59,930 bases of DNA from a virus (taxonomy: Duplodnaviria; Caudoviricetes). The notes beneath the pieces are model-generated. The model saw only the letters and a list, made by a program, of their open reading frames with translations. It made no database searches and was not told where the DNA came from. A program made the position numbers and the translations under genes. Below are positions 3,677 to 15,767 of this stretch, piece after piece (position 1 is the first letter of the stretch; every line of letters begins with the position of its first letter). The DNA is taken from positions 1-59,930 of the IMG/VR virus record IMGVR_UViG_3300035195_000113; one strand, given 5' to 3'.

Positions 3677-3853
3677 TTAGTACGCGTTTAATTGGTTAAA
3701 CATTCTTGTTAATTGCTCTTTTGTAGCACCAGTAGTACGTCTTATATTGTCTACTGCTTTAACATGATTTTGGTTTGTGTAAAAGTTATCTACACTTGTT
3801 TTCACTCCTGTTACTGTACAAATTTTAGTTTGGTTTTTTCTTGGTCTAGCCAT
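3677..3853 (-). CDS. Small basic protein (58 aa) with AT-hook-like N-terminus
   Basis: MARPRKNQTKICTVTG...; fills the gap between genes exactly; below the ORF-track cutoff. Confidence 0.65.
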   Translation of the reverse strand: MARPRKNQTKICTVTGVKTSVDNFYTNQNHVKAVDNIRRTTGATKEQLTRMFNQLNAY

Positions 3854-3856
3854 AAT

Positions 3857-4588
3857 TTAAAGGGTTTTAGTTAAAAAAAATTGTTGAGGATCAAACTCCT
3901 CGGTCTTAAAAAATAATTTATATTGTTCTGCTGCTTGTTGAACTTTGTCAGCTCCTCTTTCGTAGAACTGTGGTGAGCAGTCAAATATACCTATTTGGTG
4001 AGTTGTTTTGTCTATAACTATAAACAACATTTCATAACCAAACAGTTTACTATAAATATAAGCTTGTGAGTCGTAATTGTACTTAGAAGCTGAATATTTA
4101 AATTTAGTGATGTCTGCTGTTGTTTTCAAATCAATGATCAGCTTTTCATCATGGTTTACAATATCAGCTTTACCTTTCCACATTTCGCCTTCAAGCTCTG
4201 TAATCCCTGGTCTTTCGTATTCTACGTTGTTACCTCGTATAAGATCTCTGCAAACTTCATTTGACATCATTTTATCTGTCATTAGTTCTATCTTATCTAC
4301 CTCCGTTTGTAACAAACATAGTTCACCACCTGAGATCTCTTTATACGCTTTTGAATTTCTATTTGTTGATTCTACAATCTTAAAGTTTTTAAGCTTTTCA
4401 GGTTCTAGTATCGCTGTATGGAAATAACCACCAACTAAAAAAGCAGGTATTTGCTTTGATGGTTGACCTAGCGCTAAAGGATTTGTTAATAAAGTAGAAA
4501 TGTCAGAGTTACTAAGATACTTCTTACCGAAACTACCATAGTAATGCTCATCGTTTTCTAGTTGTTTTAACACATCTTCTTTTTTCAT
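3857..4588 (-). CDS. PD-(D/E)xK exonuclease (RecE/ExoVIII-like)
   Basis: LSNSDI, GGYFHTAILEP, KGKADIV...IIDLKTT, YDSQAYIY. Confidence 0.85.
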   Translation of the reverse strand: MKKEDVLKQLENDEHYYGSFGKKYLSNSDISTLLTNPLALGQPSKQIPAFLVGGYFHTAILEPEKLKNFKIVESTNRNSKAYKEISGGELCLLQTEVDKIELMTDKMMSNEVCRDLIRGNNVEYERPGITELEGEMWKGKADIVNHDEKLIIDLKTTADITKFKYSASKYNYDSQAYIYSKLFGYEMLFIVIDKTTHQIGIFDCSPQFYERGADKVQQAAEQYKLFFKTEEFDPQQFFLTKTL

Positions 4589-5192: not shown

Positions 5193-5951
5193 CTACAGGT
5201 AATCAAGCACTTGCGAGTGATCTACACTGTCTATAAGTTTTTGCACAGCTTGTTTTTTTAACTGAGAAACTCTAACATAGGAGCTACTACCTTGTATTTT
5301 TAAAGCTTTAGCTATTTCTTTAGCTGGATGCTTATCACAGTCTAAACCATAGCTAAGTCTAAGTATATTAAACTCTAACTCATTTAAATGTTTTTTAAGT
5401 AAGCCAGTTAAGTATATGTTTAGTATTTGTTGATTATATGGTTCTGATTTATCAGGTATATCATATATAGGGTTGTCGTCATTATTAGGTTTTTCATCTA
5501 TACTTAAAAATATAGAATTAAAAAACATAGCAACCATCTTTTCATCTTTACCAAAGTTTTTACGTATGTCATTTAATTTGTGCTCTGGTATACGTATATC
5601 ACCTCTGTTTATATCTATAGATCTTCTTATAGCTCCTTTAATTCTTTTACTAAAGAAAGACTTTAATGTCTTTTCATAGTCTTCTGATTTTTCTAGTGTT
5701 GGCCAGTCTAATCTATCAACAGCTTTAGTTAATCCAGCTCCGCCTGCAGATATTAAATCTAGTATACTTTGTACACCTGATGCTTGTTGGGTTGTAGAGA
5801 ATTTTCTAGCTAAGCTTTCTACTAACGGCATAAACTTAGTTATAAGCTCTTCCCTAGTACAGTCTTTCCAGTCTTTTCCTTCTAGCCTTAACAAAGCTTG
5901 TTTAAGATCTTCTTTATATCTTATATAGTTTTGTATGTTATACTTCTTCAT
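5193..5951 (-). CDS. Phage sigma70-family RNA polymerase sigma factor
   Basis: Region 2 LVESLARKF...DLISAGGAGLTKAVDR, IRIP, region 4 HTH KEIAKAL...VRVSQLKKQAVQKL. Confidence 0.9.
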   Translation of the reverse strand: MKKYNIQNYIRYKEDLKQALLRLEGKDWKDCTREELITKFMPLVESLARKFSTTQQASGVQSILDLISAGGAGLTKAVDRLDWPTLEKSEDYEKTLKSFFSKRIKGAIRRSIDINRGDIRIPEHKLNDIRKNFGKDEKMVAMFFNSIFLSIDEKPNNDDNPIYDIPDKSEPYNQQILNIYLTGLLKKHLNELEFNILRLSYGLDCDKHPAKEIAKALKIQGSSSYVRVSQLKKQAVQKLIDSVDHSQVLDYL

Positions 5952-10332: not shown

Positions 10333-10367
10333 TATATTATCCACAACCATTCGTATTATGTTTGTAA
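10333..10367 (-). promoter_or_regulatory. Early promoter-like motif, copy 2
   Basis: TTACAAACATAATACGA-N7-TGGATAATA. Confidence 0.8.
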
Positions 10368-10374
10368 ATGTTAG

Positions 10375-10448
10375 GTGCGCAGGAAGGATTCGAACCTTCG
10401 ACCTCGAGTTTATGAGACTCGCGAGCTAACCATCTGCTCTACCGCGCA
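10375..10448 (-). tRNA. tRNA with CAT anticodon (Met; atypical initiator-like)
   Basis: Acceptor TGCGCGG/CTGCGCA, D arm GAGC/GCTC, anticodon arm CGAGT-CTCATAA-ACTCG, T arm GAAGG-TTCGAAT-CCTTC; no encoded CCA. Confidence 0.9.
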
Positions 10449-10456
10449 ATGTTTAG

Positions 10457-10563
10457 TGGAGGTGGGCGGAATCGAACCGCCGTTAGACACCTTTGCTAGC
10501 GTATCGATGCAATTAAGTTCATTTATACGTGTCGCCGCGGTCGTCTCTGACCTTATCACCCCC
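10457..10563 (-). ncRNA. Miniature tmRNA-like RNA (107 nt)
   Basis: Acceptor GGGGGTG/CACCTCC-A with G3:U70, stemless D-loop analogue ATAAGGTCAG, helix AGAC/GTCT, 3-nt linker AAC, T arm GGCGG-TTCGATT-CCGCC. Confidence 0.65.
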
Positions 10564-10567
10564 TTAG

Positions 10568-10654
10568 TAACTAGTTAAGGAATCGAACCTTAATACCGTC
10601 GTAGTAATGAACTCTGTTTAATTTAATAACACCTGTTGCATCCATACCTAGTTA
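10568..10654 (-). ncRNA. tRNA-like RNA (acceptor and T arm, irregular core)
   Basis: TAACTAG/CTAGTTA stem, T arm TAAGG-TTCGATT-CCTTA, followed by CTA; abuts the tmRNA-like element. Confidence 0.55.
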
Positions 10655-10694
10655 TTAGTCATCGTTAGTTTTTCTGTGAAGTACTCGCCTGACA

Positions 10695-10883
10695 TTATTT
10701 TCTACGCCAAGCTCTGTGCACTGATGCACTTACTTCTTGACTTACTATTTGTATTGTATTACCTGTTTTGTGCTCGATAATAGGTACGTAAGAGTATGTT
10801 TGTGTTGTACTACAAGGCATACATGTTTTATAACCTAATGTTAATCTTACTGGGTGTACTTTATCTCCGCATTTACAATACAT
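10695..10883 (-). CDS. C4 zinc-finger protein (DksA/TraR-type finger)
   Basis: CKCGDKVHPVRLTLGYKTCMPC. Confidence 0.65.
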   Translation of the reverse strand: MYCKCGDKVHPVRLTLGYKTCMPCSTTQTYSYVPIIEHKTGNTIQIVSQEVSASVHRAWRRK

Positions 10884-10908: not shown

Positions 10909-10943
10909 TATATTATCCAAACTCATTCGTATTACGTTTGTAA
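10909..10943 (-). promoter_or_regulatory. Early promoter-like motif, copy 3
   Basis: TTACAAACGTAATACGA-N7-TGGATAATA. Confidence 0.8.
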
Positions 10944-11822: not shown

Positions 11823-11857
11823 TATATTATCCATTACTATTCGTATTTGGTTTGTAA
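11823..11857 (-). promoter_or_regulatory. Early promoter-like motif, copy 4
   Basis: TTACAAACCAAATACGA-N7-TGGATAATA. Confidence 0.8.
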
Positions 11858-14201: not shown

Positions 14202-15767
14202 ATGGAATATAATAACCCTAGCGAGTTAGTAAAGGAACTATCCTTTGGTGATGATGCTAAACAAAAAGTAATAAATGGTGTAGACAAACTAGCTAAAGCA
14301 GTGAAGTCTACGTTAGGAGCTTCAGGTAAGTGTGTAATTTACGAAGATGCTCGTGGAAGACCGGTGATAACAAAAGATGGTGTAACCGTTGCGGAAAGCG
14401 TAGTCTTAATGGACCCGGTCGAAAACATAGGAGCAACACTTATTAAGGAAGCTGCTAAAAACACAGTGAAAGAAGCAGGTGACGGTACTACTACAGCTAC
14501 CGTACTTGCTGAATCACTACTAAAAGAAGCATCGTCAGCCGTAGGATCTGTAAGAGATATAAAGCTTGGTATTGCTTCTTGTGCTAAAAAAGTAAATGAT
14601 TACTTAGATAGTGTATCTATAGAAGTAAAAGGTGAAATGTTAAAAGATGTAGCAGCTATATCATGTAACAATGATGCTACACTAGGAGCTATAATATCTG
14701 AAGCTTATGAAAAAGTAGGTGAATCAGGTGTTGTACTAATGGAAGAATCAGAAGATGATAGAACATACGTTGAGATTGTTGATGGAGTTCAATTAGAGTC
14801 TGGTTTAAAATCACAGCATCTTATTACTGATAGAGACAAACAAAGAATTGTTCTTGACAAACCAATGGTTTTAATAGTTGCATCGGAAATACCTAACGTA
14901 AGAAAGATACAACCTATACTAGAACATGTTATAAAGCATAAAAGATCACTACTTATAGTAGCTGAAGTTGATACACAGGTATCATCTACGTTACTAATGA
15001 ATAAAGTTAAAGGTAATATTAAAGTAAACTTTATAGATCCACCAGGATTTGGGCCAACAAAGCAAAGTACGCTTGAAGATTTAGCATTTTTAACAGGTGC
15101 TACTATAATGGACGAAAACCTAGGTGATGATTTAGACCTTATAACCGTTGATTGTTTAGGTGAAGTGCAAAAATCGGTCACAGATGATAAAACAACAGTA
15201 CTAACCACATTGGATTTAGGCTTAGATTTAGAAGAAAGGATCAAGGATGTGCACAAAAGCATAAAAAAAGAAAAAAACCAGTACATTAAACGTAGATTAG
15301 AGCAAAGATTAGCCATGTTAAGTGGTTCAGTTGGTATAGTCAAGGTCGGTGCTGATTCAGCTGTTGAGCTGAAAGAGAAAAAAGATAGAGTTGAAGACTC
15401 TATATACGCTGTGAAAGCCGCCTTGAAAGAAGGAATAGTCCCGGGCGGTGGAGTAGCGCTGTTTGATGCAGCAAAAAACATTGAACCAAGCAACTTAGGT
15501 GAAGAAATACTGTTAAAATCAATATTATCTCCATTTTACACTATATTAGACAATGCAGGTATAAAAAACAACGTAGTAAAAGGCGTTGTTACTGGTTACG
15601 GAATAGATGTAACCACTGGCAACTGTGTTAATATGGTTGAAAAAGGTATAATTGACCCAGTACTAGTAACTAAGTCAGCTTTAAAAAATGCAATATCAGT
15701 AGCTTCTACTATAATATCTGCAGATTGTGTAATCTCTAACGTAAGGATCGAAAATGCAAGCAGTTAA
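14202..15767 (+). CDS. groEL: Chaperonin GroEL
   Basis: [34 protein letters not shown]. Confidence 0.97.

What the first reader, a model, noticed from the sequence alone, without database searches (positions are those of the whole stretch)
10457..10563. 107-nt miniature tmRNA-like RNA with a four-codon internal frame
Seen (minus strand): GGGGGTG ATAAGGTCAG AGACGACCGCGGCGACACGTATAAATGAACTTAATT GCA TCG ATA CGC TAG CAAAGGTGTCT AAC GGCGG TTCGATT CCGCC CACCTCC A. Known tmRNA tRNA-like-domain hallmarks are present: G3:U70 and discriminator A (AlaRS identity), a stemless D-loop with GG, helix 2, a 3-nt linker and a T arm. About 60 nt replace the usual roughly 250-nt pseudoknot and mRNA region. That segment contains UAAUU-GCA, matching the U(-5)A(-4) resume context of E. 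coli UAGUC-GCA, and reads A-S-I-R-stop, which is not an AA-ending degron. Inference: either a minimal ribosome-rescue RNA that releases without a degradation tag, or an alanylated SmpB/EF-Tu decoy that blocks host trans-translation. I know of no described one-piece tmRNA this small.
Basis: partly seen in the sequence, partly recalled or inferred. Interest (0 to 1): 0.9.

Follow-up and report, generated by a model that had tools for sequence, protein, structure and literature searches.

The report
Phage mini-tmRNA without a tag frame
A marine phage carries a 107-base copy of only the tRNA-like end of the bacterial ribosome-rescue RNA (tmRNA); it belongs to a large, previously little-noticed phage family of such stubs, a kind already known from one mycobacteriophage, and its supposed four-codon message is a chance feature.

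Summary
The sequence is as described, at window 10457-10563 on the minus strand. It is a real, conserved structured RNA and not a chance match. It has a 7-bp acceptor stem with G3:U70 and discriminator A, a stemless 10-nt D-loop analogue, helix 2, an AAC linker and a T arm. Rfam tmRNA matches it end to end but below threshold (39 bits against 47). A covariance model built from 23 relatives, leaving out the window and its closest kin, scores it at 67.4 bits, while tRNAs score 24 or less.

It is one of about 72 distinct elements, 63-149 nt long, in about 60-kb marine Flavobacteriia-type podophage contigs. The ends are conserved, helix 2 covaries, and the insert is hypervariable and modular.

The four-codon frame does not hold up. 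It lies in a 34-nt hairpin insertion that the two closest homologues (73 nt) lack. Such frames are no commoner in the family than in shuffled sequence.

The novelty claim is wrong. A TLD-only tmRNA is published for mycobacteriophage DS6A, and CDS-less forms are published for jakobid mitochondria and some plastids. A similar RNA inhibits tmRNA in E. coli.

Best reading: a host-dependent TLD decoy or competitor for SmpB and AlaRS. This is a new variant of a known kind. Expression and activity remain untested.

The parts
10457..10563 (-). Whole 107-nt TLD-only mini-tmRNA
   Evidence: Sequence. RF00023 39 bits. R1 35.2 bits. Leave-out model R2 67.4 bits.
10557..10563 (-). Acceptor stem, 5' strand (nt 1-7, G3 at 10561)
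   Evidence: Pairs 7 of 7 with nt 100-106. In alignment A5, pair 4:69 shows four pair types and G3:U70 is present in 29 of 29 rows.
10547..10556 (-). Stemless D-loop analogue (nt 8-17, holds the GG)
   Evidence: G12, G13 and G17 are invariant in A5.
10539..10546 (-). Helix 2, 5' strand (nt 18-25, one bulged G)
   Evidence: MFE fold. Family helix 2: all 7 counted pairs show changes on both sides.
10498..10531 (-). Lineage-specific 34-nt hairpin insertion (nt 33-66). L137 and L282 have a single base here, completing a GAAA loop.
   Evidence: Pairwise alignments; the MFE fold shows it as an extension hairpin. No second copy in any fetched locus.
10496..10510 (-). Judged a chance feature.
10485..10491 (-). 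Helix 2, 3' strand (nt 73-79)
10482..10484 (-). AAC linker (nt 80-82)
   Evidence: Invariant A80, A81 and C82 in A5.
10465..10481 (-). T arm (5-bp stem, 7-nt loop TTCGATT)
   Evidence: Two of the five stem pairs covary.
10457..10464 (-). Acceptor 3' strand (U70 at 10460) and discriminator A (10457). No CCA is encoded; the trailer is CTAA.
   Evidence: A Flavobacteriales MAG tmRNA (L344) has the same acceptor strand and trailer.
10374..10448 (-). tRNA-Met(CAT), 8 nt downstream on the same strand; probably co-transcribed
   Evidence: ARAGORN; RF00005 63.5 bits. A tRNA-Met follows within 300 nt in 16 of 95 family instances.
10912..10932 (-). Promoter-like repeat ATACGAAT-N5-TGGATAAT upstream of ORF 10695-10883. 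Inferred start of the unit ORF, tRNA-like RNA, mini-tmRNA, tRNA-Met.
   Evidence: Three copies in the window against 0 in 100 shuffles. The next copy, at 10336-10356(-), follows the tRNA-Met.

Best explanation
The element is a tag-less, TLD-only derivative of tmRNA carried by a lytic-type marine podophage, probably of Flavobacteriia. It keeps what host factors recognise on tmRNA: the acceptor stem with G3:U70 and A73 (AlaRS), the acceptor and T arm (EF-Tu), and the D-loop analogue with the base of helix 2 (the SmpB site). It has lost the pseudoknots and the message. Inferred steps: it is transcribed with the upstream small ORF and the downstream tRNA-Met from a phage promoter-like repeat, cut out by the host tRNA-processing enzymes, and given CCA by the host, because none is encoded. 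It then binds host SmpB and is probably alanylated. With no template to resume on, it cannot complete trans-translation. Its most likely effect is to compete with host tmRNA for SmpB, and possibly for AlaRS, EF-Tu and stalled ribosomes. That would reduce tagging and degradation of proteins made during infection. Shown here: the structure, its conservation, family membership, the lack of a conserved frame, and the absence of a phage SmpB. Inferred: expression, processing, charging, SmpB binding and the effect on the host.
For: Anatomy is. Leave-out model R2 gives 67.4 bits for the window, 59.3 for L137, 53.1 for L134 and 34.7 for DS6A; the tRNA-Met of the window scores 21.7 and no other match exceeds 26.2. 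Model R1, built from the 79-80-nt class, finds the published DS6A element at 61.7 bits and the window at 35.2. Covariation on 29 sequences: 92.9% of cells pair, against 34-52% when the partners are slid. Cells with double changes number 108, against 35.4 +/- 4.2 in shuffles (0 of 500 reach it). All 7 helix 2 pairs change on both sides. When the acceptor was left free in the search pattern, 20 of 20 loci still had G3:U70 and A73. There is no conserved frame. The phage has no SmpB (0 matches) and no tyrosine integrase, so it depends on the host and the element is not an attP remnant. The acceptor strands, T loop and CTAA trailer are identical to those of a full-length 357-nt tmRNA in a Flavobacteriales MAG (L344). 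[quoted passage not shown] Two natural variants with A3:U70 (L314 in 4 instances, and L312) fit a role that does not need charging. Contigs from RNA libraries of two studies contain the element without differences.
Against: There is no direct evidence of transcription, processing, charging or SmpB binding. Contigs from RNA libraries may derive from DNA, and their ends coincide with strain break points. RF00023 stays below its gathering score (39 against 47), and that model also gives sub-threshold hits in archaea, which lack tmRNA. The D-loop analogue (AAUGGUUAG type, AUAAGGUCAG in the window) differs from the GGUUUCGAC type seen in full-length tmRNAs and the DS6A class, so SmpB binding is not assured. 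The near-invariant G3:U70 would not be needed by a pure SmpB sponge. The patterns fixed U70, so those sets cannot test its conservation. The rows of alignment A5 were chosen for at least 4 contiguous helix 2 pairs in one register (30 of 73), which inflates the percentage paired. Two related phages lack the element: MW202828.1 by both R1 and RF00023, and NC_055854.1 by RF00023 only. It is therefore accessory. The inhibition experiment was done in E. coli with a different TLD, and I did not read the original paper.
Confidence: 0.55

Rival explanations
1. Tag-less rescue. The alanyl-mini-tmRNA with SmpB and EF-Tu enters stalled ribosomes and accepts the nascent chain, adding one Ala. The complex is then resolved by drop-off with peptidyl-tRNA hydrolase or by a release factor of the ArfB type. 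Ribosomes are freed without marking phage proteins for proteolysis.
For: G3:U70 with A73 is kept in 29 of 29 aligned sequences, and in 20 of 20 loci found with the acceptor left free. That argues that charging matters. The authors of PMC11915505 suggest that the CDS-less tmRNA retained in mitochondria with SmpB still helps with incomplete mRNAs (passage). The phage invests in proteostasis, carrying GroEL, and a relative is annotated with GroES.
Against: No release mechanism is known for a peptidyl-TLD. Natural A3:U70 variants exist (2 unique sequences, 5 instances). The published test found inhibition whether or not the RNA was chargeable. Nothing here tests ribosome entry.
Confidence: 0.2
2. 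The TLD is a tRNA-like handle and the function lies in the variable insert. The handle provides RNase P and CCA processing, stability, or delivery to SmpB or ribosomes for small RNA modules that differ between phages.
For: Inserts range from 4 to about 100 nt between conserved ends. The same modules recur in different scaffolds, and one module also occurs free-standing upstream of the TLD in L137 and L213. A second tRNA-like scaffold with a variable middle lies next to the TLD in the window, L134 and L409. L410 holds two TLDs in tandem.
Against: Members with almost no insert (63-70 nt) keep the full TLD, so the TLD appears to be selected for itself. No insert matched an Rfam family: at E <= 0.1 for L134, L137 and L213, and for L262. 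No targets were sought. The window's own 34-nt insertion has no second copy in any fetched locus.
Confidence: 0.15
3. One reading: a minimal working tmRNA that resumes translation on GCA and adds A-ASIR before a stop.
For: The frame and a U(-5)A(-4) context are present in the window.
Against: The whole segment is absent from the closest homologues, which are otherwise near-identical. 3348 of 5000 shuffles of the core give such a frame, and 377 of 5000 give it with the context. Frames in the family number 24 of 73 against 30.7 +/- 3.9 in shuffles, and only 1 of 73 ends in Ala-Ala. In the MFE fold, parts of the frame pair within the insertion hairpin and its closing GC stem, though the first codon and most of the stop codon are unpaired.
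Confidence: 0.03
4. A decaying remnant of a captured host tmRNA gene or of an ssrA attachment site, with no function.
For: Many temperate phages carry the 3' end of ssrA as attP (recalled general knowledge). 15 of the 113 instances of the pattern found in the fetched loci had no 5' strand within 55-199 nt, and several of these look like 3' ends of full-length tmRNAs.
Against: Both strands of the acceptor stem are kept and covary (pair 4:69 has four pair types), and helix 2 covaries strongly. There are about 72 distinct versions with conserved ends. The position after the same small ORF is syntenic in four phages. No integrase was found.
Confidence: 0.03

Closest known systems
TLD-only tmRNA of Mycobacterium phage DS6A (tmRNA Website 'Phage__Mycobacterium.9'; Mao et al. 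2009, Hudson et al. 2014, Nawrocki et al. 2025)
   Same: It is phage-encoded and one-piece, with a complete TLD (G3:U70, A73, D-loop analogue, helix 2, 3-nt linker, T arm) and no pseudoknots or tag frame. The models cross-hit: R1 scores DS6A 61.7 and the window 35.2 bits, and R2 scores DS6A 34.7 bits.
   Different: DS6A (80 nt, L130:28478-28557) and 49 IMG/VR loci of its class at 50 bits or more keep the GGU(U)UCGAC-type D-loop analogue, an RAC linker and a conserved AAAACC-plus-hairpin inside helix 2. The window's subfamily has an AAUGGUUAG-type loop, an AAC linker and a hypervariable insert. The hosts differ (actinobacteria against, probably, marine Flavobacteriia). The two classes may be independent reductions; this was not tested.
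Standard one-piece tmRNA (Rfam RF00023)
   Same: The acceptor, T arm and D-loop region align to model positions 1-17 and 346-374. The acceptor strands, T loop and CTAA trailer are the same as in a Flavobacteriales MAG tmRNA.
   Different: 328 of 374 model positions are missing, and there are no pseudoknots and no conserved tag frame. The score is below the gathering threshold. It cannot template a tag.
CDS-less organellar tmRNAs: jakobid and oomycete mitochondria (Rfam RF02544) and Mallomonadaceae plastids (about 65 bp)
   Same: They are reduced to roughly the TLD, have no tag frame, and rely on an SmpB encoded elsewhere (passage in PMC11915505).
   Different: They sit in organelles and arose by reductive evolution of the resident gene, not in a virus acting on a host that has its own full tmRNA. 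No sequence comparison was made here.
tRNA-Ala
   Same: G3:U70, A73, a 7-bp acceptor stem and a T arm.
   Different: The element has no D stem and no anticodon arm. ARAGORN makes no call. A true tRNA-Ala in L193 scores only 19.5 bits with R1, and no match at that site is listed with R2.

Membership tests
tmRNA (RF00023), full function | Acceptor stem with G3:U70 and discriminator A | tested here: met
   29 of 29 relatives. 20 of 20 loci found with the acceptor left free.
tmRNA (RF00023), full function | T arm, stemless D-loop analogue, and helix 2 closing the body | tested here: met
   All 7 helix 2 pairs covary.
tmRNA (RF00023), full function | Score at or above Rfam's gathering threshold | tested here: not met
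   39 bits against 47. Relatives score 34.8-36.6 bits.
tmRNA (RF00023), full function | mRNA-like region with a conserved resume codon, tag frame and stop | tested here: not met
   The frame lies in an insertion absent from L137 and L282. There is no enrichment of frames in 73 cores. It is at chance level in the window.
tmRNA (RF00023), full function | Pseudoknots PK1-PK4 | tested here: not met
   328 model positions are replaced by 67 nt. No search for a small pseudoknot was made.
tmRNA (RF00023), full function | Alanylation by AlaRS, SmpB binding, entry into stalled ribosomes | not testable with these tools
   Biochemistry is needed. No phage SmpB was found.
TLD-only (CDS-less) phage tmRNA, DS6A kind | A complete TLD with little else, encoded by a phage | tested here: met
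   107 nt. The record is a virus contig of about 60 kb with terminase, portal and GroEL.
TLD-only (CDS-less) phage tmRNA, DS6A kind | Detectable likeness to the DS6A element | tested here: met
   R1 scores DS6A 61.7 and the window 35.2 bits, E 1.4e-5. R2 scores DS6A 34.7 bits, above every tRNA. The likeness is moderate and common descent is not shown.
TLD-only (CDS-less) phage tmRNA, DS6A kind | Inhibits host trans-translation | not testable with these tools
   Known only from passages citing Mao et al. 2009. The paper is not held.
Marine Flavobacteriia-type phage mini-TLD subfamily (delimited here) | Match to a model built without the window and its nearest kin, and a syntenic position | tested here: met
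   R2 67.4 bits, E 5.5e-14. The element follows the same small ORF in the window, L134, L137 and L213.
tRNA-Ala | Cloverleaf with D stem and anticodon arm | tested here: not met
   No ARAGORN call. The family's covariation supports helix 2 instead. A lower-scoring RF00005 overlap could have been hidden by clan filtering.

The most novel reading that the evidence does not exclude
Marine phages use the tmRNA tRNA-like domain as a portable, host-processed scaffold. It docks on SmpB, or on SmpB-like domains of defence systems such as the CoCoNuT SPB domains, and it carries exchangeable RNA modules. On this reading the family is a diversifying anti-defence or ribosome-targeting RNA platform and not a simple sponge. 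A weaker version is that TLD-only RNAs are a widespread, overlooked phage strategy against trans-translation. In support of the weaker version, more than 100 loci of two classes were found here, whereas the one text passage I read names only DS6A as a phage example.
Probability: 0.12. Interest if true: 0.85.

Novelty: new variant of a known kind. Interest (0 to 1): 0.55.

Why it matters
Trans-translation is the main ribosome-rescue pathway of bacteria and is a drug target. A natural RNA that blocks or diverts it would be a compact tool and would point to a phage-host conflict at stalled ribosomes.

The kind is known from one mycobacteriophage and an E. coli experiment.
- TLD-only RNAs are common in uncultured phages. 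The DS6A-like 79-80-nt class was found in 49 IMG/VR loci at 50 bits or more. A second class has about 72 distinct versions in marine podophage contigs.
- The second class keeps the Ala identity pair and helix 2 while its interior is swapped freely.
- No tag frame is involved.

Together these give a comparative basis for defining the minimal SmpB- and AlaRS-recognised RNA, and a set of natural variants to test, including A3:U70 forms.

The supplementary tables of the tmRNA database papers were not available. They may already list more phage examples.

Tried and rejected
- **Close relatives by pattern.** A strict pattern for near relatives of the window's version found nothing in viral contigs. 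Relatives were reached instead through the phage GroEL and a 3'-end pattern.
- **Cultured phages.** BLAST against the INPHARED collection found no isolate with the element. The window stretch hit only tRNA-Met genes, and a consensus-like member (L229) hit only tRNA T arms.
- **Two relatives lack it.** MW202828.1 (62% terminase identity) gave one 16.6-bit match with R1, scoring no better than R1 gives the window's own tRNA-Met, and nothing with RF00023. Flavobacterium phage elemoE_6-9C gave nothing relevant with RF00023.
- **Riboswitch idea.** I suspected that one insert module (ACGGAAGU...) was a glutamine riboswitch, as in phage Melnitz's tmRNA. Rfam gave no such hit for L262 or for L134, L137 and L213.
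- **Alternative D-arm.** A pairing GGTC/GACC at nt 12-15 and 22-25 would make a D arm in the window. The family consensus does not share it, so I dropped it.
- **Sequencing runs.**
  - The stretch is held by marine and seawater DNA runs and by RNA-library runs.
  - One RNA-library contig spans exactly 10375-10563.
  - At 10563 another RNA-library run shows a 132-nt strain deletion (10564-10695), and a third has a contig that continues with unlike sequence.
  - The contig ends therefore reflect strain break points. I draw no conclusion about RNA ends, levels or uncovered parts.
- **Tools and papers not available.** Mao et al. 2009 is not held. The term 'mini-tmRNA' finds 0 papers, and 'tmRNA-like' with 'phage' finds 1 irrelevant review.
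- **Not attempted.** Pseudoknot search, R-scape, host prediction and a metagenome-contig scan.

Full report
**1. The observation**

By position:
- nt 1-7 pair 7 of 7 with nt 100-106, with G3 opposite U70;
- nt 107 is the discriminator A;
- nt 8-17 are an unpaired loop holding GG;
- nt 18-25 pair with nt 73-79 (7 bp, one bulged G);
- AAC follows at nt 80-82;
- nt 83-99 form a 5-bp T stem with the loop TTCGATT.

The unconstrained MFE fold gives this architecture at -36.4 kcal/mol (z -2.31; 5 of 200 shuffles fold as well). ARAGORN calls only a tRNA-Met 8 nt downstream. At gathering thresholds Rfam also reports only that tRNA. In a local search, RF00023 (tmRNA) matches 10454-10563(-) across the whole model, with 328 of 374 positions replaced by 67 nt. 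The score is 39 bits against a gathering score of 47. The same model gives sub-threshold hits in archaeal control genomes, so this score alone proves little.

**2. The genome**

The window is a whole IMG/VR virus record of 59,930 b, about 90% complete, with about 34% G+C. It encodes primase-helicase, ligase, a sigma-like factor, GroEL, large terminase and portal. Its terminase is 62% identical to that of an uncultured 60.8-kb podovirus. It is 45% identical to those of the listed Flavobacterium 'elemo' phages. Cellulophaga, Tenacibaculum and Maribacter phages are also among the 87 matching records. It has no SmpB and no tyrosine integrase.

**3. It is a known kind**

Passages read in two papers say that mycobacteriophage DS6A carries a tmRNA that is 'TLD only'. 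They are Hudson et al. 2014 (PMC4131195) and Nawrocki, Petrov and Williams 2025 (PMC11915505). [quoted passage not shown] 2009. That paper is not held and I did not read it. The 2025 paper also reports CDS-less tmRNAs of about 65 bp in Mallomonadaceae plastids and notes that mitochondrial tmRNAs lack a tag frame.

Searches for 'mini-tmRNA' (0 papers), 'tmRNA-like' with 'phage' (1 irrelevant review) and two broader term sets found no description of a wider phage family. Supplementary tables were closed and may list more.

**4. The DS6A class is common in viral metagenomes**

Two pattern scans of IMG/VR required the acceptor and T arm to lie 50-85 nt apart. Of 114 distinct candidate strings, 77 had a perfect acceptor stem and no ARAGORN tRNA call.

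Many are 79-82 nt with one layout: acceptor, a GGU(U)UCGAC-type loop, a 7-8-bp helix 2, an AAA(A/G)CC stretch with a small hairpin, an RAC linker and a T arm. Model R1, built from 7 of them, was run over 100 sources. It gave 50 matches at 50 bits or more, one of which is DS6A itself at L130:28478-28557 (61.7 bits). That site lies between gp33 and gp34 and is not annotated in the record. The window scored 35.2 bits with R1, just above the best tRNAs (about 32 bits).

**5. The window belongs to a second class**

Among the 80 best relatives reached through GroEL (596 of 600 candidates confirmed), 3 loci hold a homologue at the same place: L137 (73 nt), L213 (100 nt) and L134 (126 nt). In each it lies downstream of the same small Zn-ribbon-like ORF. 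All three hit RF00023 at 34.8-36.6 bits.

A scan for their shared 3' end gave 109 loci, mostly contigs of 50-69 kb. I extracted 79 distinct strings in 98 instances; 15 further instances had no 5' strand within 55-199 nt, and several of those look like full-length tmRNA 3' ends. Of the 79:
- 73 begin GGGNGUG, and one of these is a tRNA-Pro by ARAGORN;
- 2 are TLDs with A3:U70 (L314 in four instances, and L312);
- 1 is a tRNA (L272, ARAGORN tRNA-Tyr) and 1 looks like one by eye (L298, not scanned);
- 2 are probably mis-set 5' ends.

The roughly 72 TLDs are 63-149 nt long. They share GGGNGUG, a 10-nt loop (consensus AAAUGGUUAG), helix 2, AAC, a T arm and CACNUCC-A. Between the helix 2 strands lies anything from a 4-nt loop to about 100 nt.

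Model R2 was built from 23 of them, leaving out the window and its nearest kin L137 and L282. It scores the window at 67.4 bits (E 5.5e-14), L137 at 59.3, L134 at 53.1 and DS6A at 34.7. A DS6A-class member scores 26.2, the TLD ends of two full-length Bacteroidota tmRNAs score 25.9 and 21.1, and the window's tRNA-Met scores 21.7.

**6. Covariation**

Alignment A5 holds 29 sequences, and 92.9% of cells pair, against 34-52% when the 3' partners are slid by 1-3 columns. Cells with changes on both sides number 108, against 35.4 +/- 4.2 in shuffles (0 of 500 reach it). All 7 counted helix 2 pairs change on both sides, and up to four Watson-Crick pair types occur at one position. Acceptor pair 4:69 occurs as C-G, A-U, G-C and U-A, while G3:U70 is kept in 29 of 29.

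Two caveats apply. The rows were picked for at least 4 contiguous helix 2 pairs in one register (30 of 73; 29 were aligned after adding L137 and dropping near-duplicates). The scan patterns also fixed U70. As a check with the acceptor left free, a pattern anchored on the D-loop analogue and T arm found 20 loci, and all 20 have G3:U70 and A73. These 20 are, however, closely related to each other.

**7. The four-codon frame**

L137 and L282 are near-identical to the window over the shared 72-73 nt but lack nt 33-66 (window 10498-10531). They have a single base there, which completes a GAAA loop. The missing segment contains the UAAUU context and all of the frame except the last two bases of the stop codon. 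In the window it folds as an extension of that hairpin.

Across 73 cores, 24 contain any GCN..stop frame of 2-20 codons, against 30.7 +/- 3.9 in shuffles (485 of 500 shuffles reach the observed number). Only 1 ends in Ala-Ala. For the window's core alone, 3348 of 5000 shuffles give such a frame, and 377 of 5000 give one with T(-5)A(-4). The frame is a chance feature of a lineage-specific insertion.

**8. Likeness to the host**

A scan of one genome per prokaryote species with the same 3' pattern gave 92 loci:
- 62 full-length tmRNAs of 345-440 nt;
- 9 cloverleaf tRNA-Ala genes;
- 14 with no 5' end found;
- 7 mini forms, of which 6 are of this class (on short MAG contigs that carry the same phage ORF where checked) and 1 is of the DS6A class.

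A 357-nt tmRNA in a Flavobacteriales MAG (L344) has the same acceptor strands (GGGGGUG/CACCUCC), T loop, discriminator and CTAA trailer as the window's element. No CCA is encoded in either.

**9. Context and expression**

A promoter-like repeat, ATACGAAT-N5-TGGATAAT, occurs three times on the minus strand against 0 in shuffles. One copy precedes ORF 10695-10883. That ORF is followed by an odd tRNA-like element, the mini-tmRNA and the tRNA-Met. The next copy follows the tRNA-Met. I infer one transcription unit from which tRNA-processing enzymes release the RNAs.

RNA-library runs from two studies and several DNA runs of seawater hold the stretch. RNA-library contigs carry the element with no differences. 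Contigs cannot show transcription, and their ends fall at strain break points, so expression remains unproven.

**10. Mechanism**

What is conserved is the part of tmRNA that AlaRS, EF-Tu and SmpB are known to recognise (established knowledge of the TLD-SmpB complex; recalled, not tested here). What is lost is everything needed to resume translation.

The published experiment on a similar RNA points to inhibition of trans-translation by SmpB titration. I take this as the most likely action (0.55). The rivals are:
- tag-less rescue that needs charging (0.2), favoured by the near-invariant G3:U70 and disfavoured by the natural A3:U70 variants;
- a scaffold role for the exchangeable inserts (0.15);
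- a working four-codon tmRNA (0.03);
- a dead remnant (0.03).

**11. Verdict**

It is a new variant of a known kind, and the family-level picture is the more interesting result.

Noticed in passing
window 10567-10654 (-): A second tRNA-like element lies directly upstream of the mini-tmRNA. It has a 7-bp acceptor stem (TAACTAG/CTAGTTA; position 3:70 is A:U), a 6-bp T stem with loop TTCGATT, discriminator C, and no cloverleaf. ARAGORN does not call it, and Rfam does not at E <= 10. Homologues with a different middle lie upstream of the TLD in L134 and L409. A T arm followed by CTAGTT occurs within 120 nt upstream in 10 of 89 contexts. One RNA-library strain variant lacks 10564-10695 altogether. 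My fold used slightly wrong ends.
   Followed up: partly
window 10336-10356, 10912-10932, 11826-11846 (-): The repeat ATACGAAT-N5-TGGATAAT sits ahead of successive small minus-strand ORFs: 3 copies against 0 in 100 shuffles. A longer version recurs several times in each related phage locus. It is probably a phage-specific promoter; the phage encodes a sigma-like factor at 5193-5951(-).
   Followed up: partly
L251, L262, L264 (inside the TLD insert); L137 about 3850-4250 and L213 (free-standing, upstream of the TLD): Insert modules are shared between otherwise different TLD scaffolds. One of them (...GACTATCGACGGATATA... with ACGGAAGTGTATTAC) also occurs outside a TLD. The window's GCGGCGA/AGCAAAGG module recurs in L137, L282, L306 and L265, and only partly in L258. 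None is recognised by Rfam.
   Followed up: partly
L314 (4 instances) and L312: These are natural mini-TLDs with A3:U70 in place of G3:U70. They should not be AlaRS substrates by the usual identity rule (recalled). Their 5' ends fit the family layout.
   Followed up: no
L410 (genome contigs): Two mini-TLDs of this class lie in tandem, about 100 nt apart, on one contig.
   Followed up: no
window 14202-15767 (+); MW202828.1 40671-42561: The phage encodes a GroEL (phrog_5725, E 3.5e-131). The related Manatee Spring phage is annotated with GroEL and a 10-kDa co-chaperonin. 596 of 600 candidate IMG/VR stretches encode a relative.
   Followed up: no
L094, L111, L117, L106 (IMG/VR loci): These are 84-105-nt tRNA-like genes with an Ala-type acceptor end, a normal D arm and an over-long middle. 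ARAGORN does not call them. They may be intron-bearing or otherwise expanded tRNAs. They are not part of the mini-tmRNA families.
   Followed up: no
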